A stretch of 64,000 bases of DNA from Bacteroidales bacterium. Its GTDB lineage: Bacteria; Bacteroidota; Bacteroidia; Bacteroidales; PWNQ01. Shown here in pieces: positions 11,729-61,495 of this stretch (the first letter of the stretch is position 1; each line of letters starts with the position of its first letter). The translations under genes were made by a program, and so were the position numbers. Location: NCBI GenBank assembly GCA_003557725.1, contig PWNQ01000165.1, positions 690 through 64,689 on the forward strand, in the 5' to 3' direction. The notes beneath the pieces were generated by a model that was not told where the DNA came from, did no database searches, and was given only the letters and a program-made list of their open reading frames with translations.

Positions 11729-12475
11729 TTATTTCTCTTCATTATCTGCCTTCTTTTCTTTGGCAGCTTCTTCCACAGTGTCCTCTTTTTTTGCAGGCTC
11801 CTCCTTTGCAGGTTCCTCCTTTGCTTTAGGTTCTTCCTTAGCTTTAGGCTCTTCCTTTGCAGGCTCCTCTTTAGCAGGTTCTTCTTTTTCCGCAGGTTTT
11901 TCTTTGTCTGCTTCTTTCTCTGCGGGTTCTGTTTTGGCTACTGGTTCTTCTTTTTCGGTTACTGGTTCTTTTTGTTCAGGTTCTTCGGTTGCTGCTTCTT
12001 CTTCACCTTCCATTTCTGCCTTTCTCATTTTCGCAATTTGCGCAGCGCGGGCTTCATTAACCGTTTTTTCGGCTTCCAGTTGTTTCTTTTTGTCTTCCTT
12101 CATCTTCAGGCTAACGTCTTTGGAAACATGGCTGATCTTTTCTTCTTTTTCTTTCATCCAGGCATCGAATTTGGCATCGGCCTGTTCCTGGGTAAGCGCT
12201 CCTTTAGCAATCCCTTTTTGCAGGTGATTTTTGTAAAGAATACCTTTGTAAGACAAAATTGCACGTGCTGTTGCTGTGGGCTGTGCCCCTGTTTGCAGCC
12301 AGTACAGTGCCCGGTCGAAATCAATAGTGATCTCAGCAGGCTGAGGAAGCGGATCGTAGGTGCCAATCTTCTCTATATATCTTCCGTCCCGTGGTGCACG
12401 ACCATCCGCAATTACAATGTGAAAGTAAGGTCTTTTCTTCCTTCCACGTCGCTGTAATCTGATTTTTGTTGGCAT
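11729..12475 (-). CDS. rpsP: 30S ribosomal protein S16 with ~150-aa K/E/A/P-rich C-terminal extension
   Basis: MPTKIRLQRRGRKKRPYFHIVIADGRAPRDGRYIEKIGTYDPL is the S16 core. The tail contains EEPAKEEPAKEEPKAKEEPKAKEEPAKEEPAKKE. Confidence 0.9.
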   Translation of the reverse strand: MPTKIRLQRRGRKKRPYFHIVIADGRAPRDGRYIEKIGTYDPLPQPAEITIDFDRALYWLQTGAQPTATARAILSYKGILYKNHLQKGIAKGALTQEQADAKFDAWMKEKEEKISHVSKDVSLKMKEDKKKQLEAEKTVNEARAAQIAKMRKAEMEGEEEAATEEPEQKEPVTEKEEPVAKTEPAEKEADKEKPAEKEEPAKEEPAKEEPKAKEEPKAKEEPAKEEPAKKEDTVEEAAKEKKADNEEK

Positions 12476-54284: not shown

Positions 54285-55022
54285 CTATGTGATTATTGGT
54301 TTTCTGTCATTCAAGCAGTTAAGGCATTTTTTCACTTCTTCAAAACTTCTGTGGTGCATTTTTAACAGGGTATAAGCTGCACCAACATCCTGGGGTTGAT
54401 GTGCGTCGGATGAACGGATAAATGATTTATTTTTCAAATGGGGCTGTTTTTTCCAAAGGGATTGAGCGGGAGTGTGCCGGCACATCTCCAGGGCGTCAAA
54501 GGGCAGGTCCTGGGGGATGAATCCCAGTTGGCTCATAATGCTGAACATGGGTCGGTCAATGTGTGCCGGAATAAATATGCCCTTCATTTGAGCTACTGTA
54601 GCTTGAATTTGGCTAATGCTTTGGTTCAAAGCTCCATGGAGGGAGTGAGGCACCAGTCTCAATATTTGTGCGTCCTGGTCAACCAGTGGCTGATGGCCCA
54701 GTTTTTCCGGGTTATTGGGAGTTTTCATTATATATTTATCGATGTAGTTCTGCAGGGCTTTGATATTTTCGTGACTTACAAGGCATAAGCAATGCACTTC
54801 TTCAACGGATGTAATTTCTGCACCGTTGATCACGAAGATGCCGTATGCTTTTGCCATTTCCCTGATCACAGGGGCCTGCAAAGTACTGTTATGGTCTGTG
54901 ATACCTATAATGTCCAATCCCTTTTCGGCTGCTGCTTCCAGCAGATTTCGGGGGCTCATGTCCAGGCTGCCGCAAGGAGATAATGCAGTATGAATGTGTA
55001 GATCGGCACGGTAGAGGTTCAT
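54285..55022 (-). CDS. PHP-domain metal-dependent phosphoesterase
   Basis: MNLYRADLHIHTALSPCG...DIIGITDHNS...PAHIDRP...SSDAH motifs; ATGA overlap with the upstream gene. Confidence 0.8.
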   Translation of the reverse strand: MNLYRADLHIHTALSPCGSLDMSPRNLLEAAAEKGLDIIGITDHNSTLQAPVIREMAKAYGIFVINGAEITSVEEVHCLCLVSHENIKALQNYIDKYIMKTPNNPEKLGHQPLVDQDAQILRLVPHSLHGALNQSISQIQATVAQMKGIFIPAHIDRPMFSIMSQLGFIPQDLPFDALEMCRHTPAQSLWKKQPHLKNKSFIRSSDAHQPQDVGAAYTLLKMHHRSFEEVKKCLNCLNDRKPIIT

Positions 55023-55357
55023 GAGCTGTTTAGCAGGTTATGCAGCCGGCCGGATATTTCGAAAGCACTTAGTGTTGTACCCACTATGGGGATCTGCTCC
55101 TGGTTGCTGTATTGCTGTGTATCCTCAAGGGGCTGCAGGTTATTTACCAGAATAACTGCGGATAGGTCTTTCAGGGATGCAATAGCCATTACGTTTTTAT
55201 GGGTTTGCAGGGTGATCCAGGCCATTCCCTCACTGGCATTTCCCATCACATCGCTTAGAAGGTCTGAGGTATATCCGCCGTTTACGGGTTTGTCCAGGCC
55301 ATCACTGCCTGAATAAACGGTTAGATTCAACGCTTTTACCACATCTTTTACGGTCAT
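55019..55357 (-). CDS. DRTGG-domain protein (copy 2)
   Basis: 112 aa. ...GYTSDLLSDVMGN...ITLQTHKNVMAIA... is paralogous to 57145-57519. Confidence 0.7.
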   Translation of the reverse strand: MTVKDVVKALNLTVYSGSDGLDKPVNGGYTSDLLSDVMGNASEGMAWITLQTHKNVMAIASLKDLSAVILVNNLQPLEDTQQYSNQEQIPIVGTTLSAFEISGRLHNLLNSS

Positions 55358-55359
55358 AA

Positions 55360-56709
55360 TTATCTGTTTTTGTCTAGCTTGGGTTTTCCCCAGATGTCCC
55401 TGAGGATATCCAGTGATTCGTTTTTATCCATCATATCTTTTTGTTCCAGTCGCTTTTGAATAAAAATACATTGCCTGATGCTGGCTTTTCCCTGTACCAC
55501 ATCCTTGGCCAGGGCATGGCACGACGGGGCTCCGCACACTGTACAGTCTACCCTTGGCAGCCGCTCCATGGTGCTTTGTATTTGTTTCATCTTCCGGATT
55601 GCACTGGACACGTCGTTGTCTAAAATGAGCATGGATCTGGGCTCTACCGGGTTGGTGGATATTTGCTTCATAAGGTCTTTTTGGTACCTTAGAATGTCTT
55701 TAACATTGTTTATTGGTGCCTTAGCGGCTCGTTTTCTCAGCCGTTCTGCTGTTAAAAACCGGTTGCCTCCGGTTAATACCCCTCCGGCACAACTTTCATC
55801 GCATGAGCGCAGCTCCAGGAAGTCAATATTTGCAATTTCATCATTTTCCACCCGCTCCAGGAAGGCCGTTACGTTGTTGATGCCATCAATGGCCAGGCTT
55901 CTGTTGGCCACATGCTCCTTTTCTCCGTTGGTTAGGCTCCAGAGGATGTCCATAGAAGATAGTTGCTGGCGGTCGGGGATGGCACAAAAGTCATCTTTTT
56001 TCTGCCGGATCAGCGTATACACTTTATTATATAAGAAATCCATATTGATCACCCCGTTGATACAGGAGGCTTCTTCGCCCACCGGGCTTTTTACGGCTGC
56101 AATCTTTGCAGCACATGGGGTAACATAAAAGATGCCCACGTCCTTATCATAAACCCCCTGGTCTTTCAATTTGCGCAGATAGTAGGCGGCACTCACATCC
56201 AGTGGGGGCTTAACGGGGAGTATATGGGGCACTAATGAAGGGAACTTTACCTGAATAAGGCGCACAATGGCAGGGCAAAAAGCGGAGATGGCCGGGGTAG
56301 CAACCTTTCCGCTGTTCAGGGTTTGCTGTTGCTTTTTAAATACCAGATCAACAGCACTTTCTGCCTCATAGATATGGGTAAACCCCAGGTGCATTAAACT
56401 GCTGTGGATCTCTTCGGTGGTGATATCTTCAGGAAACTGCCCGGTAAATACAGCCGGAATAATGGCCACACGATATTTGTAGTTTCGGGTCTGACTAAAG
56501 TCATCCTGCTCAATGATAATGGCATTTACCGGACAATGCCGGAAACATTCTCCGCAATCTATGCAGTGGTTTGCCTCCAGCCTGGCCTTGCCCCCCTGCA
56601 CCCTGAGGGCTTCCGTAGGGCACACACGCATGCAATTGGCACAGCCTATACAAAGATCGGTGTCGATCTTTAACGCATGATGAAAGGCATCTTTTTTCAT
56701 ATGGGCCAT
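55360..56709 (-). CDS. [FeFe]-hydrogenase-like (H-cluster domain) Fe-S protein, putative sensor
   Basis: Two CxxCxxCxxxCP ferredoxin motifs; Fe-hydrogenase large-subunit-like core with divergent motifs SAFCPAIV / VTPCAAK / RSCDESCAGG; C-terminal CTVCGAPSC...C Fe-S motif. Confidence 0.75.
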   Translation of the reverse strand: MAHMKKDAFHHALKIDTDLCIGCANCMRVCPTEALRVQGGKARLEANHCIDCGECFRHCPVNAIIIEQDDFSQTRNYKYRVAIIPAVFTGQFPEDITTEEIHSSLMHLGFTHIYEAESAVDLVFKKQQQTLNSGKVATPAISAFCPAIVRLIQVKFPSLVPHILPVKPPLDVSAAYYLRKLKDQGVYDKDVGIFYVTPCAAKIAAVKSPVGEEASCINGVINMDFLYNKVYTLIRQKKDDFCAIPDRQQLSSMDILWSLTNGEKEHVANRSLAIDGINNVTAFLERVENDEIANIDFLELRSCDESCAGGVLTGGNRFLTAERLRKRAAKAPINNVKDILRYQKDLMKQISTNPVEPRSMLILDNDVSSAIRKMKQIQSTMERLPRVDCTVCGAPSCHALAKDVVQGKASIRQCIFIQKRLEQKDMMDKNESLDILRDIWGKPKLDKNR

Positions 56710-57141
56710 TTAGGTGTTTTGGTGGTCCTTTTTAATATAACAAATAATCTCTACCTGTGTTCCCTTCCCCGGAGTACTTGAGATATTCAGTTCGTCGGCA
56801 TGGGCTTTTATATTGGGCAACCCCATTCCTGCTCCAAAGCCCATTTCCCTGATTTTCTCCGTTGCGGTGGAAAACCCGGCCTGCATGGCCTGGTCGATAT
56901 CCTTTATGCCCGGTCCCCGGTCTGTAAACAGAATGCGAATGCGCTTTTCACTTACATCCACCTCTGCAGTCCCATGATAGGCATGTACCACAATGTTTAC
57001 TTCCCCCTCATACATGGCCACAACTACCCGTTTGATCAGCTTTATATCCAGGTTTAGCTGCTTAAGCATCCGCTTCACCTCACTGGAGGCAAAGCCCGCC
57101 TTGCTGAAGTTGCCTCCTTCTATGTCGTATTGGGTTTTCAA
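56710..57141 (-). CDS. RsbW/SpoIIAB-like GHKL ATPase (anti-sigma-type Ser/Thr kinase fold)
   Basis: 143 aa. GGNFSKAGFASSEVKRMLKQL..., DRGPGI and GFGAGMGLPN...GKGT motifs. Apparent TTG start 3 nt after the preceding stop; its own stop abuts the next ATG. Confidence 0.75.
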   Translation of the reverse strand: MKTQYDIEGGNFSKAGFASSEVKRMLKQLNLDIKLIKRVVVAMYEGEVNIVVHAYHGTAEVDVSEKRIRILFTDRGPGIKDIDQAMQAGFSTATEKIREMGFGAGMGLPNIKAHADELNISSTPGKGTQVEIICYIKKDHQNT

Positions 57142-57144
57142 TGG

Positions 57145-57519
57145 TTAAAAGATTGGTTTAATGCCCGATTCATAAAGCAATCCACTGATTTTATACAGGG
57201 AAAAGGGGCTTTCAATTACGGTAACCTGGCACTGGGTGGCCAGTTCTACTATTTCCCGGCTGCATTTTTTGTTGCGGCCAATAATTATGCAAAGGATGTC
57301 CGACATTTCTGCCGTACGTACCACCTGTGGATTGGTAAGGCCTGTGACCAGTACCGTTTCACAAGCATCTATGGTGAGTACATCGCTCATCAGGTCGGAA
57401 GTGAAGGCCGTCTTCACGGCCACATTGTTATGGGGTCCCGGGTTTACAATGTTTCCCGAGACAATGCCGGAAAGGGTCTTGATGGTTACTCCCTCCTGGG
57501 TTATGGTCTGCTGTTTCAT
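57145..57519 (-). CDS. DRTGG-domain protein (copy 1)
   Basis: 124 aa. TSDLMSDVL...VLVTGLTNPQVVRTAEM...IIIGRNKK matches the remembered DRTGG proteins of hydrogenase loci. Confidence 0.75.
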   Translation of the reverse strand: MKQQTITQEGVTIKTLSGIVSGNIVNPGPHNNVAVKTAFTSDLMSDVLTIDACETVLVTGLTNPQVVRTAEMSDILCIIIGRNKKCSREIVELATQCQVTVIESPFSLYKISGLLYESGIKPIF

Positions 57520-57602: not shown

Positions 57603-57610
57603 CAAAAATA
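57603..57610 (-). promoter_or_regulatory. candidate -7 promoter box for the DRTGG-GHKL-sensor-DRTGG-PHP operon
   Basis: The reverse strand reads TATTTTTG, 84 nt upstream of the ATG at 57519. Confidence 0.3.
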
Positions 57611-57639
57611 CACTTACTTTTTTAAACCACCAAGAAAAA

Positions 57640-57655
57640 TGTTAAAAAAATAACA
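57640..57655. promoter_or_regulatory. TGTTA-N6-TAACA palindrome (Rex/CRP-like operator candidate)
   Basis: tgttaaaaaaataaca, a perfect 5+5 inverted repeat. Confidence 0.5.
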
Positions 57656-57656
57656 A

Positions 57657-57672
57657 TGTTAACAAAATAACA
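57657..57672. promoter_or_regulatory. TGTTA-N6-TAACA palindrome (second, 17 bp from the first)
   Basis: tgttaacaaaataaca. Confidence 0.5.
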
Positions 57673-57683
57673 ATAGGAGTAAG

Positions 57684-57714
57684 AAAGAGAGGCGGCGCAA
57701 AGCCACCTCTCTTT
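57684..57714 (-). terminator. hairpin terminator after hydA
   Basis: aaagagaggcgg-cgcaaag-ccacctctcttt (one mismatch), followed by a U-rich tract on the coding strand. Confidence 0.45.
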
Positions 57715-57723
57715 GGGTATTTA

Positions 57724-59514
57724 CTAATATCGCTCCCTTTTCACATACTTGGTGTGAAGCAGTTCGTGCGATTTATGACTGAGTGGTTCACCCAGAAAGT
57801 CCTGATAAATTTTGGTAACGTCCGGATTTTCGTGGGATTTTCTGATGGGCATAGCCATATCTTCCTCGTAAATGGCTTTAGTCCGTTGGTCACGGATCTT
57901 TTGGCTGGTGGGGATGGGCTGTCCGCCGCCTCCCAGGCATCCACCGGGGCAAGCCATAATTTCGATAAAGTGGTAATTTGCTTTACCATCTTTCACTGAC
58001 TGCATCAGTTTTTTAGCGTTGGTCAGGCCATGAGCAATGGCGCATCTCAGTTCCACTCCGTCAAGGAATTTCCAGGCTTCCACCGGGTTTTCGATTTTCA
58101 CAACCGCTTCCTTCACTCCTTCCATTCCCCTGACGGGCATGATATTGAGGTTTTCAAAGGGCACTTCACGGCCGGTAACCAGTTCGTAGGCGGTGCGCAA
58201 TGCGGCTTCCATTACTCCTCCTGTGGCTCCAAATATGGTAGCTGCACCGGTGGAGTCACCCATCAGGCTATCGAACTTCTGGTCATCCATTTCCATAAAC
58301 TCCAGGCCGGCTTGTTTAATCATTATGGCCAGTTCTCGTGTAGTGAGCACATGGTCCACATCCTTATAGCCACTGTCTCTCATTTCGGGGCGGTCGGCCT
58401 CGAACTTCTTGGCGGTACAGGGCATTATAGATACGGATACAATGTCTTTGGGGTCCAGGTTACGCTGTTGGGCGTAATAGGTTTTGGCCAGAGAGCCAAA
58501 CATTTGCTGGGGAGATTTGCAGGTAGACAAGTTTTCCAGGAAGTCGGGGAAGATATGCTCTGAAAACTTGATCCATCCTGGCGAGCAGGAGGTCATCATG
58601 GGCAGACGGATGGACGTGTCTTCGTCCACCAGTGCTTTTTTCAGGCGGGTAAGCAATTCGGTTCCTTCTTCCATAATGGTCAGGTCGGCGGTAAACTGGG
58701 TGTCCAGCACCGAGTCGAATCCCAGCCGTTTCAAAGCGGACACCATTTTTCCGGTGACACGCGATCCTGCGTGGAAACCCAGCTCTTCGCCAAGTCCTAC
58801 ACGCACAGCCGGTGCGGTTTGTACCACTACATGTTTGGATTTGTCGTAGATGGCCTCCCATACTTCATCGATATTGTTCACTTCAATGAGCGCACCGGTG
58901 GGGCAGCGGTTGATACATTGCCCGCAGTTGGTACACACCACATCGTGCATGGGTTTTTCAAAGAAGCTGGATATCTTCATCTTACCTCCCTTGTTGGCTA
59001 CAGCCAGGGCACTGACGGCCTGCAGGTTTTCACAGGTACGTACACAGCGTTGGCAGCGGATACACTTGCTGTCGTCTTTCATAATGGATGGTGACGACTG
59101 GTCAATGGTGTAGTTTTTCTCCGGTACCAGGTCCAGGAACATTTCGTTACCGGTACGGTACTGGTTGGCCATGCTTTGAAGTTCGCAGTTGTTGTTTCTG
59201 TAGCACTTGGTACAGTCTGCATTGTGTTCTGACAGCAGCAGTTCGATGATGTGCTTTCTGGAACGGCGCACCTCCATGGTGTTGGTGTGGATTTTCATCC
59301 CTTCGTGTACCGGCATGGCACAGGCCGCCACCAGCCCTTTGGCGCCTTCCTGTTGTACAATGCATACCCGGCAGTTTCCTGCCACACAAAGGTCTTCATG
59401 GTGACACAGTGTGGGTATTTTTATCTTTGCCTTACGTGAAGCATCCAGGATGGTTTTTCCTTCTTCAATGCTCACATCAATGCCATCGATATTTAAATTG
59501 ATCATATTTGCCAT
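57724..59514 (-). CDS. hydA: [FeFe]-hydrogenase catalytic subunit (multimeric NuoG-like HydA type)
   Basis: 596 aa. N-terminal 2Fe-2S, His-ligated 4Fe-4S (HNADCTKCYRNNNC), two ferredoxin 4Fe-4S motifs, H-cluster motifs TSCSPGW / MPCTAKKFE / EIMACPGGCLGGGGQP, and a small-subunit-like tail. Confidence 0.9.
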   Translation of the reverse strand: MANMINLNIDGIDVSIEEGKTILDASRKAKIKIPTLCHHEDLCVAGNCRVCIVQQEGAKGLVAACAMPVHEGMKIHTNTMEVRRSRKHIIELLLSEHNADCTKCYRNNNCELQSMANQYRTGNEMFLDLVPEKNYTIDQSSPSIMKDDSKCIRCQRCVRTCENLQAVSALAVANKGGKMKISSFFEKPMHDVVCTNCGQCINRCPTGALIEVNNIDEVWEAIYDKSKHVVVQTAPAVRVGLGEELGFHAGSRVTGKMVSALKRLGFDSVLDTQFTADLTIMEEGTELLTRLKKALVDEDTSIRLPMMTSCSPGWIKFSEHIFPDFLENLSTCKSPQQMFGSLAKTYYAQQRNLDPKDIVSVSIMPCTAKKFEADRPEMRDSGYKDVDHVLTTRELAIMIKQAGLEFMEMDDQKFDSLMGDSTGAATIFGATGGVMEAALRTAYELVTGREVPFENLNIMPVRGMEGVKEAVVKIENPVEAWKFLDGVELRCAIAHGLTNAKKLMQSVKDGKANYHFIEIMACPGGCLGGGGQPIPTSQKIRDQRTKAIYEEDMAMPIRKSHENPDVTKIYQDFLGEPLSHKSHELLHTKYVKRERY

Positions 59515-59549
59515 TTTTCTGATTTTTTGTGGTTCAACAAAGTGGTTGA

Positions 59550-60716
59550 TTAGTAAATCATTTCTTCCCTAAAGTTATCCACGATAGAGGAGAATGAGTT
59601 GGCTACCGATTGTCCCAGGCCACATTTGGATGTGAGTTTCATGGTTTGGCTCAGCTTAAGCAATTCATCCAGGTAGTCAATGGATTTATCGCCTCGTTTC
59701 ACGGCTTCCACGCCCAGCAGTAGTTGCTGGCATCCCACCCGGCAGGGTGTACATTGCCCGCATGATTCTTCCTCAAAGAATTCCAGGTAGTTGTGAATAA
59801 CGTTAAACATGGACCGGGAGCTGTTGAATACCATCATAGACCCTCCGGTAGGTACGCCTTCAAAACCGATCACTGTATCTTTAAACTTTTTTCGGGGCAC
59901 ACAGAATCCGGCTGCGCCTCCCACCTGTACGGCTTTGGTGTCGCCATCGCCAAATTCATCCACGAAATCCTGCAGGGGCATGCCCAGCTCCAGCTCATAG
60001 ATGCCCGCAATGGGGGTGTCTCCGGAAACGGAAAACACTTTCGAGCCACGGGAGTCATCGGTGCCCAGTTCTTTGAACTTTTCTGAACCCAAACGGCATA
60101 TCATAAAGGCGTATACCAGGGTCTCCACATTGTTGATTACCGTTGGCTTGCCCTTATAACCGCTCACGGTGGGGTAGGGGGGCTTGTTTCTGGGCTCTCC
60201 CCGCTTGCCTTCCATAGACTCAAACAAGGCGCTTTCTTCACCACAAATATAGGCTCCTGCTCCGGTAACAATATGTATGCGGAAGTCAAAATCCAATGCA
60301 TCCAGGGTCTTATGAAATTCATCCAGGTGCTTTTGTAAGTCGTTGAGCAGGAATTTATATTCTCCGCGAAGGTAAATGTATCCTTCTTTGGCTCCAATAA
60401 CTTTGGCCCCAACGGCCATTCCGCCAAACACCTTGTAAGGTACCTTGAATAAAATCTCCCGGTCTTTGAATGTCCCCGGCTCGCCTTCATCGGCATTGCA
60501 TATGATAAAGCGCTCATCGCCTTTTTCCTGTGCGGTGAACTTCCACTTCATACCGGTGGGAAAGCCTGCACCACCACGGCCGCGAAGACCTGAGTTCAAA
60601 AGCTCATCTACGATCTTCTCGTTATCCATCTTCAGCGCATCGGAAAGGATCTCCTTAAAACCGCATTCCTCGCTGAATATGATATCTACTCTTTTTAACT
60701 GTTTATTTTCTGCCAT
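59550..60716 (-). CDS. hydB: NuoF-like flavoprotein subunit of NAD(P)H-linked hydrogenase
   Basis: 388 aa. GLRGRGGAGFPTG (NADH), GAGAYICGEE (FMN), CGQCTPCR...CGLG (N3 cluster). GGAGGT lies 4 nt upstream of the ATG. Confidence 0.9.
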   Translation of the reverse strand: MAENKQLKRVDIIFSEECGFKEILSDALKMDNEKIVDELLNSGLRGRGGAGFPTGMKWKFTAQEKGDERFIICNADEGEPGTFKDREILFKVPYKVFGGMAVGAKVIGAKEGYIYLRGEYKFLLNDLQKHLDEFHKTLDALDFDFRIHIVTGAGAYICGEESALFESMEGKRGEPRNKPPYPTVSGYKGKPTVINNVETLVYAFMICRLGSEKFKELGTDDSRGSKVFSVSGDTPIAGIYELELGMPLQDFVDEFGDGDTKAVQVGGAAGFCVPRKKFKDTVIGFEGVPTGGSMMVFNSSRSMFNVIHNYLEFFEEESCGQCTPCRVGCQQLLLGVEAVKRGDKSIDYLDELLKLSQTMKLTSKCGLGQSVANSFSSIVDNFREEMIY

Positions 60717-60729
60717 ATTGACCTCCGTT

Positions 60730-61197
60730 TTAGCTATGGTGCTTAATATCAGTAATTATTTCCTTAACCTTCTCCGGTGTCAGGTCCGTATAGGCATTGT
60801 CATTTATCAGCATAACCGGACCCTTATGGCACCAACCCAAACAGTTGGTCTCCAAAAGTGTGAACTTCTTGTCCGCACTGGTATCGCCTATATTAACCTT
60901 TAACAGGTTCTCAAGCGTCTTGATAATTTGACGCTTGCCTTTCATGTCGCAGGTGATGGTGCGACAAACACGGATCACATACTTTCCCCGTGGAACTGTG
61001 TCCAAAAAGGAATAGAATGATGCTGTTCCGTAAACCTGAGCCGCCGACAAATCCAATTGCCGGGCAATTTCTGTGATGGCTTCATCACTCAGGTACCTCT
61101 CCTGGTCTACTACACCTTGAAGGATGGCCATTAAATTGGTTCGTTCCGAACCATGAGCATCCACAAGCTGTTTTACCATTTCTTGTGTATCAGACAT
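60730..61197 (-). CDS. hydC: NuoE-like thioredoxin-fold 2Fe-2S subunit
   Basis: 155 aa. VCRTITCDMKG...CLGWCHKGPVMLIND. GGAGGT lies 5 nt upstream of the ATG. Confidence 0.88.
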   Translation of the reverse strand: MSDTQEMVKQLVDAHGSERTNLMAILQGVVDQERYLSDEAITEIARQLDLSAAQVYGTASFYSFLDTVPRGKYVIRVCRTITCDMKGKRQIIKTLENLLKVNIGDTSADKKFTLLETNCLGWCHKGPVMLINDNAYTDLTPEKVKEIITDIKHHS

Positions 61198-61240
61198 TTT
61201 TTACCTCCGTAATTGATTGGTTTATTAATCTTTCCTTAAC

Positions 61241-61256
61241 TGTTAATTTGCTAACA
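61241..61256. promoter_or_regulatory. TGTTA-N6-TAACA palindrome downstream of the candidate hydC -7 box
   Basis: tgttaatttgctaaca. The extended form CTGTTAATTTGCTAACAA resembles the clostridial-type Rex box TTGTTAA-N4-TTAACAA. Confidence 0.5.
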
Positions 61257-61265
61257 AATAAAGGT

Positions 61266-61273
61266 CAAAGATA
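61266..61273 (-). promoter_or_regulatory. candidate -7 promoter box for hydCBA
   Basis: The reverse strand reads TATCTTTG (TAnnTTTG), 69 nt upstream of the hydC ATG. Confidence 0.3.
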
Positions 61274-61284
61274 ATAAACTCTCC

Positions 61285-61300
61285 TGTTAACCGGATAACA
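61285..61300. promoter_or_regulatory. TGTTA-N6-TAACA palindrome upstream of the candidate hydC -7 box
   Basis: tgttaaccggataaca, within CTGTTAACCGGATAACAG. Confidence 0.5.
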
Positions 61301-61342
61301 GAACCGCTTTTTTTTGAAATTTATAGATAGTCTAAATAAGAA

Positions 61343-61495
61343 TGAGTCCGGTCTGGATACACACATTTTTCACATCCGCTGAAAATCAGCACCGCTTTAT
61401 AGATGGGGCAAAGCTGATTTTCAGCGGCTTCACCCTTTAGGGCCCCGGGGCAAAAAGCCAATGAAAATCGAAAGTAACCTTTTAGACCGGACTCA
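61343..61495 (-). mobile_element. family-1 MITE-like element, intact long form (153 bp)
   Basis: TIRs tgagtccggtct.../...agaccggactca; perfect 4-bp flanking duplication AGAA (61339-61342 and 61496-61499). Carries an ~82-bp internal module with the hairpin gctgaaaatcag...ctgattttcagc. Confidence 0.85.

What the first reader, a model, noticed from the sequence alone, without database searches (positions are those of the whole stretch)
61241..61300. Two perfect TGTTA-N6-TAACA palindromes bracket the candidate hydCBA promoter (Rex/CRP-type operator?)
tgttaatttgctaaca (61241-61256) and tgttaaccggataaca (61285-61300) are 44 bp apart centre to centre, about four helical turns. They flank a TAnnTTTG box (reverse strand TATCTTTG, 61266-61273) upstream of hydC. 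Two further perfect copies of the same 5+6+5 palindrome lie upstream of the adjacent sensor operon (57640-57672). A palindrome with 10 specified bases is expected well below once by chance in 64 kb, and I found no other copy while reading the window. The extended sites (CTGTTAA-N4-CTAACAA) resemble, as I recall it, the clostridial variant of the NADH-sensing Rex operator (TTGTTAA-N4-TTAACAA). Rex is a known regulator of hydrogenase operons in Firmicutes and Thermotogae. No rex gene lies in the window.
Basis: partly seen in the sequence, partly recalled or inferred. Interest (0 to 1): 0.62.

Follow-up and report, generated by a model that had tools for sequence, protein, structure and literature searches.

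The report
Rex repressor sites on hydrogenase promoters
The four palindromes are very probably binding sites for Rex, the repressor that senses the cell's NADH/NAD+ balance, so this sediment bacterium would switch on its NADH-linked hydrogenase and the neighbouring hydrogen-sensor genes when NADH builds up. This is a familiar switch, but I found no description of it in this phylum.

Summary
The window holds exactly four perfect TGTTA-N6-TAACA sites, against 0.08 expected by chance. Two lie 44 bp apart on either side of a TATCTTTG (-7) box upstream of hydC. Two abut, 17 bp centre to centre, between the hydA terminator and the sensor operon.

The Rex reading is supported:
- The genome is an uncultured Bacteroidales from soda-lake sediment. 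It encodes one clear Rex on another contig.
- The whole 2.8-Mb genome has only 12 such sites. Eleven are intergenic and ten lie at its three [FeFe]-hydrogenase loci.
- The sites are conserved in relatives while the flanking DNA diverges.
- Other Bacteroidales carry TTGTTAAATAATTAACAA directly upstream of rex itself.
- In 401 Bacteroidales genomes the abutting double box occurs in 101, and the reversed control in none. Of those 101, 98 encode Rex (Fisher p = 2e-17).
- The 44-bp pair occurs in 18 genomes, all with Rex. In the copies I read, a TAnnTTTG box lies between the two sites.

This is a new member of a known kind: clostridial-type Rex operators in Bacteroidota. I also found a second conserved element, TTTAGA-N5-TATAAAT, just upstream of the Rex boxes. 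Its binding protein is unknown. Binding and transcription start sites remain untested.

The parts
61285..61300 (.). Promoter-distal Rex box of the hydCBA promoter (cTGTTATCCGGTTAACAg read on the - strand). It overlaps the expected -33 region.
   Evidence: Kept in 6 of 7 same-genus relatives and degenerate in G003 (A1). The same 44-bp pair occurs in another family (G018) and in 18 of 401 genomes of the order.
61241..61256 (.). Promoter-proximal Rex box of hydCBA (tTGTTAGCAAATTAACAg on the - strand). It starts 10 nt downstream of the -7 box, so about +3 to +20 by inference.
   Evidence: Kept in all 7 same-genus relatives. In G007 it reads TTGTGAA...TTAACAA, where TTGTGAA is the canonical Rex half-site (A1).
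61266..61273 (-). Bacteroidetes-type -7 promoter box TATCTTTG (consensus TAnnTTTG), between the two Rex boxes.
   Evidence: Invariant in 8 of 8 genomes of the genus (A1). A TAnnTTTG box (two copies imperfect) lies between the paired boxes in the copies from other genera that I read. Its promoter function is inferred from the published Bacteroides consensus, which I cite from memory.
61319..61336 (-). Second conserved element, TTTAGACTATCTATAAAT (TTTARA-N5-TATAAAT), 18 nt upstream of the distal Rex box. The protein that binds it is unknown.
   Evidence: Invariant in 8 of 8 genomes of the genus (A1). Also present at hyd2 in 8 of 8 (A5) and upstream of rnfB in 4 of 4. The composite with a Rex box occurs in 31 of 401 genomes from 17 genera, against 1 control hit.
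61203..61208 (-). Shine-Dalgarno sequence GGAGGT of hydC.
   Evidence: Invariant in A1.
57724..61197 (-). hydC (60730-61197, NuoE-like), hydB (59550-60716, NuoF-like, 388 aa) and hydA (57724-59514, [FeFe] hydrogenase), the operon under control.
   Evidence: Pfam and NCBIfam. HydA scores 883 bits on NF040763, 'NADH-dependent [FeFe] hydrogenase, group A6'. Three exact hydA contigs occur in an alkali-sediment metatranscriptome.
57684..57714 (-). Intrinsic terminator hairpin after hydA: a 13-bp stem followed by a U-rich tail.
   Evidence: -22.6 kcal/mol, z = -4.6. Relatives have different stems at the same place, each followed by a T run (A3).
57657..57672 (.). Distal box of the abutting Rex double box upstream of the sensor operon.
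   Evidence: Kept in 5 same-genus genomes and in 2 other families. Double boxes occur in 101 of 401 genomes of the order, against 0 for the control.
57640..57655 (.). Proximal box of the double box. It ends 6 nt upstream of the -33 TTG, so about -42 to -57 by inference.
57631..57633 (-). Candidate -33 element (cTTG) of the sensor-operon promoter.
   Evidence: Aligned with TTG or TTTG in four same-genus relatives (G006, G007, G001, G005) but absent in G004 and G003 (A3). The same layout is seen at hyd2, where TTG is invariant (A5), and at rex promoters (A4).
57603..57610 (-). -7 box TATTTTTG of the sensor-operon promoter, 20 nt downstream of the -33 TTG.
   Evidence: A TAnnTTTG box is kept in 5 of 7 sequences of A3.
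54285..57519 (-). Sensor operon: DRTGG, GHKL kinase-like, HydS-like sensory [FeFe] hydrogenase (449 aa), DRTGG-like and PHP.

Best explanation
The four palindromes are operators for the redox-sensing repressor Rex, which this genome encodes on contig C217 (168-782, - strand, 204 aa).

At a low NADH/NAD+ ratio, Rex dimers would occupy two sets of sites:
- Two boxes that clamp the hydCBA promoter. One lies over the -33 region and one just downstream of the start site, 44 bp (about four helical turns) apart, with the -7 box between them.
- Two abutting boxes (17 bp centre to centre) immediately upstream of the -33 element of the promoter of the HydS-type sensor operon.

When NADH accumulates, Rex leaves the DNA. 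The NADH-linked [FeFe] hydrogenase and its putative H2-sensing module are then transcribed together, and excess reducing power is disposed of as H2. The same switch covers the other two hydrogenase operons of the genome and probably rnf.

What is shown: the motif, its rarity, its promoter location, its conservation, the rex gene, the link between the motif and Rex across genomes, and the same motif upstream of rex in relatives.

What is inferred: physical binding, the response to NADH, the start sites (placed from the TAnnTTTG boxes), and that the effect is repression.
For: 1. Statistics. The window holds 4 sites against 0.08 expected. The genome holds 12 with spacer 6, against 1-4 for other spacers. 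Eleven of 12 are intergenic although only 13.6% of the genome lies outside long ORFs (binomial 3e-9).

2. Regulon content. Ten of the 12 sites lie at the three [FeFe]-hydrogenase loci: C129 (hydCBA and the sensor operon), C164 (hyd2) and C217 (hyd3, facing a HydS-PAS and PP2C operon). A one-mismatch site lies 65 nt upstream of rnfB, and two same-genus relatives have perfect sites there.

3. The regulator. The Rex candidate scores 206 bits on NF003995 (cut-off 126) and carries PF06971 and PF02629. It aligns over its full length with B. subtilis, T. maritima and Thermus Rex structures. The GxGxxG motif, the FDV Asp, a Tyr aligned with Tma Tyr100, and a C-terminal Asp are kept (residues named in PMC8836258).

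4. Motif identity. The consensus of 49 sites is aTTGTTAttnnaaTAACAAt. This matches the clostridial and Thermoanaerobacterales Rex box TTGTTAANNNNTTAACAA (PMC5367854; PMC5886521). PMC5886521 also predicts Rex boxes at hfsABCD, hydG and ech. Natural variants swap in the canonical TTGTGAA half-site.

5. Phylogenetic footprinting. Both boxes and the -7 box are conserved while the flanks diverge (A1, A3 and A5).

6. Autoregulation elsewhere. TTGTTAAATAATTAACAA lies directly upstream of the -33/-7 elements of rex in 5 other Bacteroidales (A4).

7. Co-occurrence with Rex. Among genomes with a hydC orthologue, 12 of 13 with Rex have a box upstream, against 0 of 4 without Rex (p = 0.002). Order-wide, the double box is in 101 of 401 genomes and the reversed control in 0. 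Of those 101, 98 encode Rex, while only 3 of 136 genomes without Rex carry it (p = 1.9e-17). The 44-bp pair is in 18 genomes, all with Rex.
Against: - No binding, footprint or expression data exist for this organism. The metatranscriptome shows only that hydA is expressed and gives no 5' ends.
- Start sites are inferred from consensus boxes only.
- The double box lies upstream of the core promoter (about -42 to -74). That position is more typical of an activator or an anti-activator than of a simple occluding repressor.
- The co-occurrence tests are not corrected for phylogeny. By genus the small test gives only p = 0.048.
- Many genomes with Rex (167 of 265) lack the double box, and G011 has Rex but no box at hydC.
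- I saw no Rex box upstream of this genome's own rex operon.
- G003 keeps rex but has degenerate boxes at this locus.
Confidence: 0.88

Rival explanations
1. The palindromes are bound by a different dimeric regulator, for example a CRP/FNR-family protein whose TGTGA-N6-TCACA-like sites have the same geometry. The link to Rex would then be only lineage coincidence.
For: The core has the 5-N6-5 geometry of CRP-type sites. The genome encodes 3 CRP/FNR-type HTH proteins. The upstream position of the double box would suit an activator.
Against: CRP/FNR-type proteins occur in all 31 relatives, including the 4 that have hydC but no motif, so their presence predicts nothing. The motif tracks Rex (98 of 101), lies upstream of rex itself in relatives, and is letter for letter the published clostridial Rex box.
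Confidence: 0.06
2. Rex does bind, but the double boxes upstream of the core promoter (sensor operon, hyd2) do not act by occluding RNA polymerase. They act as anti-activators: they sit between the conserved TTTAGA-N5-TATAAAT element, taken as the site of an unknown activator, and the -33 element, and so block its contact with polymerase. Two abutting dimers might bind cooperatively. This concerns the mechanism only and is compatible with the Rex identity.
For: - The double box lies at about -42 to -74, outside the -33/-7 core.
- The second element lies 3-5 nt upstream of the first box in most of the listed copies. The composite is found in 31 genomes from 17 genera, against 1 control hit.
- Its centres, about -88 at hyd2 and about -66.5 at hydC, differ by about two helical turns (my count).
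Against: No activator has been identified. The element is AT-rich and could be an UP-like or architectural sequence. The sensor-operon promoter in this window has the double box but no copy of the element. The positions rest on inferred start sites.
Confidence: 0.25
3. The palindromes are non-functional by-products of AT-rich intergenic DNA or of a mobile repeat such as the neighbouring MITE.
For: Intergenic DNA here is AT-rich.
Against: The reversed-pattern controls are 0 in 401 genomes for both architectures. The flanks of the different copies are unrelated. The boxes are kept in relatives that lack the MITE (A1). The spacer-length control is specific for 6 nt.
Confidence: 0.01

Closest known systems
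Rex operators of Clostridia and Thermoanaerobacterales (TTGTTAA-N4-TTAACAA), e.g. Thermoanaerobacterium saccharolyticum adhE, hfsABCD, hydG and ech (PMC5886521), and Clostridium pasteurianum (PMC5367854, citing Ravcheev et al. 2012)
   Same: The same 18-bp palindrome, including T rather than G at the fifth position. The same class of targets: [FeFe] hydrogenases and the sensory-hydrogenase operon hfs. The same regulator family, with a winged-helix domain and an NAD(H) Rossmann domain.
   Different: The host is a Gram-negative Bacteroidales with -33/-7 (TTTG / TAnnTTTG) promoters. Two fixed layouts recur: a 44-bp clamp around the -7 box, and an abutting double box (17 bp centre to centre). I did not find either described in the papers I could search. 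By sequence, the Rex protein is closer to B. subtilis Rex (130 bits) than to Thermoanaerobacter Rex (103 bits).
Canonical Rex operator (ROP), TTGTGAA-N4-TTCACAA, of Streptomyces, Bacillus, Staphylococcus, Thermus and Thermotoga. In T. maritima the regulon includes hydrogen-production genes (PMC8836258; PMC2883068; PMC6391272).
   Same: The geometry, the invariant G/C contacted by the conserved Arg of the recognition helix, and the logic of NADH-driven derepression of redox-balancing genes. Hybrid boxes with one TTGTGAA half occur in relatives.
   Different: Here the fifth base is T in 96% of the half-sites collected.
CRP/FNR-type sites (TGTGA-N6-TCACA, TTGAT-N4-ATCAA)
   Same: The 5-N6-5 inverted-repeat geometry, and a position upstream of the core promoter for the double box.
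   Different: The core letters differ. The presence of the family does not predict the motif. The motif tracks Rex instead.

Membership tests
Rex operator / Rex regulon | An 18-20 bp inverted repeat matching TTGTGAA-N4-TTCACAA or the clostridial TTGTTAA-N4-TTAACAA | tested here: met
   All four window sites have the TGTTA-N6-TAACA core. The consensus of 49 sites is aTTGTTAttnnaaTAACAAt. Published consensus.
Rex operator / Rex regulon | The genome encodes Rex (a winged-helix DNA-binding domain plus an NAD(H)-binding Rossmann domain) | tested here: met
   C217:168-782 scores 206 bits on NF003995 (cut-off 126) and carries PF06971 and PF02629. It aligns over its full length with PDB Rex structures 2vt2, 5zz5 and 3ikt, with GAGNLG, the FDV Asp, the Tyr and the C-terminal Asp kept.
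Rex operator / Rex regulon | Sites lie in promoter regions of redox-balancing or fermentation genes | tested here: met
   Eleven of 12 genome sites are intergenic and ten lie at three [FeFe]-hydrogenase loci. A near-site lies at rnfB.
Rex operator / Rex regulon | Sites are conserved at orthologous promoters (phylogenetic footprint) | tested here: met
   Alignments A1, A3 and A5, and other families.
Rex operator / Rex regulon | The motif co-occurs with the regulator gene across genomes, and the regulator gene itself is often preceded by the motif | tested here: met
   98 of 101 genomes with the double box encode Rex, against 3 of 136 genomes without Rex. All 18 genomes with the 44-bp pair encode Rex. 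A box lies upstream of rex in 5 relatives, though I saw none upstream of this genome's own rex operon. The tests are not corrected for phylogeny.
Rex operator / Rex regulon | Rex binds the DNA, and NADH releases it | not testable with these tools
   This needs EMSA, a footprint or DAP-seq with and without NADH and NAD+.
CRP/FNR-type operator | A core of TGTGA-N6-TCACA or TTGAT-N4-ATCAA, with a cognate CRP/FNR regulator whose presence tracks the motif | tested here: not met
   The core is TGTTA/TAACA. PF13545 proteins occur in 31 of 31 relatives whether or not the motif is present.

The most novel reading that the evidence does not exclude
The hydrogenase, sensor and rnf promoters of many Bacteroidales would be two-input switches. 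An unknown activator, bound at the conserved TTTAGA-N5-TATAAAT element, drives transcription. It might be the missing DNA-binding output of the HydS-type H2-sensing cascade. Rex then vetoes it from fixed positions, either as an abutting double box that binds two dimers cooperatively (a dimer-of-dimers mode not described for Rex) or as a 44-bp clamp around the -7 box. H2 level and NADH/NAD+ ratio would thus be integrated at a single promoter.
Probability: 0.15. Interest if true: 0.65.

Novelty: new member of a known kind. Interest (0 to 1): 0.4.

Why it matters
Hydrogen production by Bacteroidales matters in sediments, digesters and guts, yet I found no paper on how they regulate hydrogenases or on Rex in this phylum.

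This locus, with the order-wide counts, gives a concrete and testable regulon. Rex, acting through clostridial-type boxes in two fixed layouts, would couple expression of the hydrogenases, the H2-sensor modules and probably Rnf to the NADH/NAD+ ratio in about a quarter of the sampled Bacteroidales genomes.

It also shows that the sensory-hydrogenase cassette is co-regulated with the enzyme. And it flags a second conserved promoter element whose binding protein is unknown.

Tried and rejected
- One-mismatch scan of the genome. It gave 83 sites, mostly noise. Only rnfB is supported by relatives. I left sites near gcvP/hppA, flavodoxin, peroxiredoxin and V-ATPase genes as unverified.
- Counts of single boxes against the reversed control outside the genus. 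These were uninformative, because AT-rich background swamps small regulons. I replaced them with the two-box patterns.
- Metatranscriptome contigs. They show hydA RNA but no 5' ends and nothing over the promoters.
- The sigma-70 promoter and terminator scan. It does not suit Bacteroidetes promoters and missed the hydA terminator, which I then showed by folding and by alignment.
- The Ravcheev 2012 paper is not held, so I cited it through papers that quote it.
- A literature search for tandem or cooperative Rex sites returned nothing relevant.
- CRP/FNR as the binding protein was rejected.
- An origin in a MITE or repeat was rejected.
- Loci from other genomes could not be read in Python, so I worked through alignments and pattern searches.
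- The other genome copies of TTTARA-N5-TATAAA (C98, C148, C171, C206) look like chance matches.

Full report
**Observation.** TGTTAATTTGCTAACA lies at 61241-61256 and TGTTAACCGGATAACA at 61285-61300. TGTTAAAAAAATAACA lies at 57640-57655 and TGTTAACAAAATAACA at 57657-57672. These are the only four perfect TGTTA-N6-TAACA sites in the 64-kb window. Shuffles give a mean of 0.08, and none of 100 reached four. Allowing one mismatch adds two sites, against 1.9 expected. The - strand reads TATCTTTG at 61266-61273, between the first two sites.

**Genes.** All genes here are on the - strand.
- hydC: 60730-61197, NuoE-like.
- hydB: 59550-60716, NuoF core, 388 aa.
- hydA: 57724-59514, 883 bits on the NCBIfam model 'NADH-dependent [FeFe] hydrogenase, group A6'.
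- A second unit at 54285-57519: DRTGG, a GHKL kinase-like protein, a 449-aa HydS-like sensory hydrogenase, a DRTGG-like protein and a PHP protein.

A 13-bp hairpin with a U-rich tail follows hydA at 57684-57714 (-22.6 kcal/mol, z = -4.6). Relatives have different stems at the same place (A3). The sensor unit therefore has its own promoter.

**The organism and the regulator.** The window is C129:690-64689 of a 2.82-Mb, 236-contig assembly with 46.7% G+C. The nearest Rex relatives are uncultured Bacteroidales MAGs. The DNA occurs in soda-lake, salt-lake and alkali-sediment metagenomes.

One rex gene exists, on contig C217 (168-782, - strand, 204 aa). It scores 206 bits on NF003995 against a cut-off of 126 and carries PF06971 and PF02629. 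It aligns end to end with the solved Rex proteins of B. subtilis, T. maritima and Thermus. The GAGNLG Rossmann motif, the FDV aspartate, the tyrosine aligned with Tma Tyr100, and the C-terminal aspartate are all kept (roles of these residues in PMC8836258). It is the last gene of a receiver / hybrid kinase / rex operon. I saw no box upstream of that operon.

**Genome-wide distribution.** The genome has 12 perfect sites with a 6-nt spacer, against 1-4 for every other spacer from 0 to 14. Eleven are intergenic although only 13.6% of the genome lies outside long ORFs (binomial 3e-9). Ten lie at the three [FeFe]-hydrogenase loci:
- four in this window;
- an abutting pair upstream of a second operon on C164 (2Fe-2S ferredoxin, 597-aa NuoF-like, 640-aa HydA);
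- three between a third hydrogenase operon and a divergent HydS-PAS and PP2C operon on C217, the contig that also carries rex.

The other intergenic sites precede a CD0519/CD1768-family membrane protein and a FabG-like reductase. A one-mismatch site lies 65 nt upstream of rnfB, and two same-genus relatives have perfect sites there.

**Conservation.** hydC orthologues exist in all seven same-genus genomes (77-82% identity) and in nine other families of the order.

Within the genus, the hydC upstream regions diverge except for discrete blocks (A1). These blocks are the distal box, TATCTTTG, the proximal box, the Shine-Dalgarno sequence, and a further block, TTTAGACTAyCTATAAATT. In G007 the proximal box reads TTGTGAA...TTAACAA, which carries the canonical Rex half-site. 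In G003 the distal box has decayed.

The abutting pair upstream of the sensor operon is kept in five genus members and in two other families. In four of the relatives a TTG follows it at the -33 position, and in five of the seven aligned sequences a TAnnTTTG box follows 20 nt further on. The pair is degenerate in G003.

The pair at hyd2 is kept in 8 of 8 genomes with the same layout (A5). A different family (G018) has the same 44-bp pair around TACTTTTG.

**Link to Rex.**
1. The consensus of 49 collected sites, aTTGTTAttnnaaTAACAAt, is the clostridial and Thermoanaerobacterales Rex box TTGTTAANNNNTTAACAA (PMC5367854). In T. saccharolyticum that box is predicted at adhE, hfsABCD, hydG and ech (PMC5886521).
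2. In five other Bacteroidales, TTGTTAAATAATTAACAA sits immediately upstream of the -33/-7 elements of rex itself (A4). That is the usual signature of autoregulation.
3. Among 17 genomes with a hydC orthologue, 12 of the 13 with Rex have a box upstream, and none of the 4 without Rex do (Fisher p = 0.002, or 0.048 counted by genus).
4. Across 401 genomes of the order, the abutting double box (TGTKA-N6-TMACA-N-TGTKA-N6-TMACA) occurs in 101 genomes from 61 genera. The reversed control occurs in none.
5. Rex is present in 265 of the 401. Of the 101 genomes with the double box, 98 encode Rex. The three exceptions are 77-92% complete. Only 3 of 136 genomes without Rex carry the double box (p = 1.9e-17).
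6. The 43-45-bp pair occurs in 18 genomes from 10 genera, again with zero controls, and all 18 encode Rex. In the copies I read, a TAnnTTTG box lies between the two boxes; in two of them it is imperfect.
7. CRP/FNR-type regulators are present in all 31 close relatives whether or not the motif is there, so they do not explain it.

**Mechanism.** This part is inferred. I take TAnnTTTG as the Bacteroidetes -7 box and TTTG/TTG as the -33 element; that consensus is established knowledge, which I cite from memory.

At hydC, the distal box covers the -33 region and the proximal box covers about +3 to +20. They lie 44 bp apart, on the same face of the helix. This is a classic occluding arrangement.

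At the sensor operon and at hyd2, the double box covers about -42 to -74, directly against the -33 element. The two dimers sit 17 bp apart, so on roughly opposite faces. At hyd3 both layouts are combined.

Following the known behaviour of Rex (PMC8836258), Rex bound to NAD+ would hold these promoters shut. NADH would release it. Production of the NADH-linked hydrogenase, of its sensor module, and probably of Rnf would then be tied to an excess of NADH.

Three exact hydA contigs in an alkali-sediment metatranscriptome show that the operon is expressed in nature, but they give no start site.

**A second element.** The block TTTAGA-N5-TATAAAT (window 61319-61336, - strand) is invariant at hydC in the genus. 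It is also present at hyd2 in 8 of 8 genomes (as TTTARA) and about 220 nt upstream of rnfB in 4 of 4. In the genus it is enriched 38 to 3 over its reversed control.

Joined to a Rex box 2-20 nt downstream, it occurs in 31 of 401 genomes from 17 genera, against one control hit. Most listed copies have only 3-5 nt in between. A near-copy is visible upstream of hydC in G020, which lacks Rex (A2).

Its centres, about -66.5 at hydC and about -88 at hyd2, are roughly two helical turns apart. This would fit an activator site that Rex antagonises. No binding protein is identified, and the sensor-operon promoter in this window lacks the element.

**Novelty and verdict.** Rex control of hydrogenases is well known in Thermotoga, Clostridia, Caldicellulosiruptor and Thermoanaerobacterium. 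I found no paper on Rex in Bacteroidales in the library. Earlier notes of this scan reached the same reading in other Bacteroidales genomes. Those are unchecked AI notes, not independent evidence.

This is therefore a new member of a known kind. Two recurrent operator layouts and an unexplained companion element are the parts worth following up.

Confidence is 0.88 and interest is 0.4.

Noticed in passing
window 61319-61336 (- strand); also G000 C164:7391-7407 and C112:13480-13496: A conserved element, TTTAGA-N5-TATAAAT, lies just upstream of the Rex boxes at hydC and hyd2 and about 220 nt upstream of rnfB. The composite with a Rex box occurs in 31 of 401 Bacteroidales genomes from 17 genera, against 1 control hit. 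The binding protein is unknown, and it may be an activator site.
   Followed up: partly
window 61343-61495: A long hairpin (GCCGCTGAAAATCAGC...GCTGATTTTCAGCGGC, about 61378-61432) lies between the divergent hydC and truA genes. A related stretch appears in G003 but not in the other genus members (A1).
   Followed up: no
G001, G002, G004, G005, G007, G018: Several relatives carry a second, weaker Rex-like gene (PF06971 E-values of 1e-6 to 1e-8, about 214 aa). I did not find it in this genome, which is 92.6% complete. Its DNA target is unknown.
   Followed up: no
L003 and L019 (G003), upstream of hydC and between hydA and the sensor operon: G003 keeps rex but has degenerate boxes at this locus: the distal hydC box and both boxes of the double box. 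It also has the fewest boxes in the genus (7). This looks like ongoing loss of Rex control at one locus.
   Followed up: partly
G000 C175, about 12270-12350, between the Rex box at 12463 and a fabG-like gene: A run of about ten head-to-tail GTTGAAC(C/T)-like 8-nt units (CTGTTGAACCGTTGAACTGTTGAACCGTTGATCTGTTG...) lies in the leader of the reductase gene. Its function is unknown.
   Followed up: no
G000 C217:1-12274: rex is the last gene of a receiver / hybrid histidine kinase / rex operon. It lies on the same contig as the third hydrogenase operon and a HydS-PAS and PP2C phosphatase pair. In G025, rex lies about 19 kb from hydC.
   Followed up: partly
window 57640-57672, 61241-61300, and orthologous sites: Read in the direction of transcription, nearly all boxes at these promoters are asymmetric: TGTTAT...(T/A)TAACA, with a T-rich spacer. 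The boxes upstream of rex in relatives are symmetric (TTGTTAAATAATTAACAA).
   Followed up: no
window 57777-59116: Three contigs of an alkali-sediment metatranscriptome match hydA exactly, so the operon is expressed in situ. Nothing covered the sensor operon or the promoters.
   Followed up: partly
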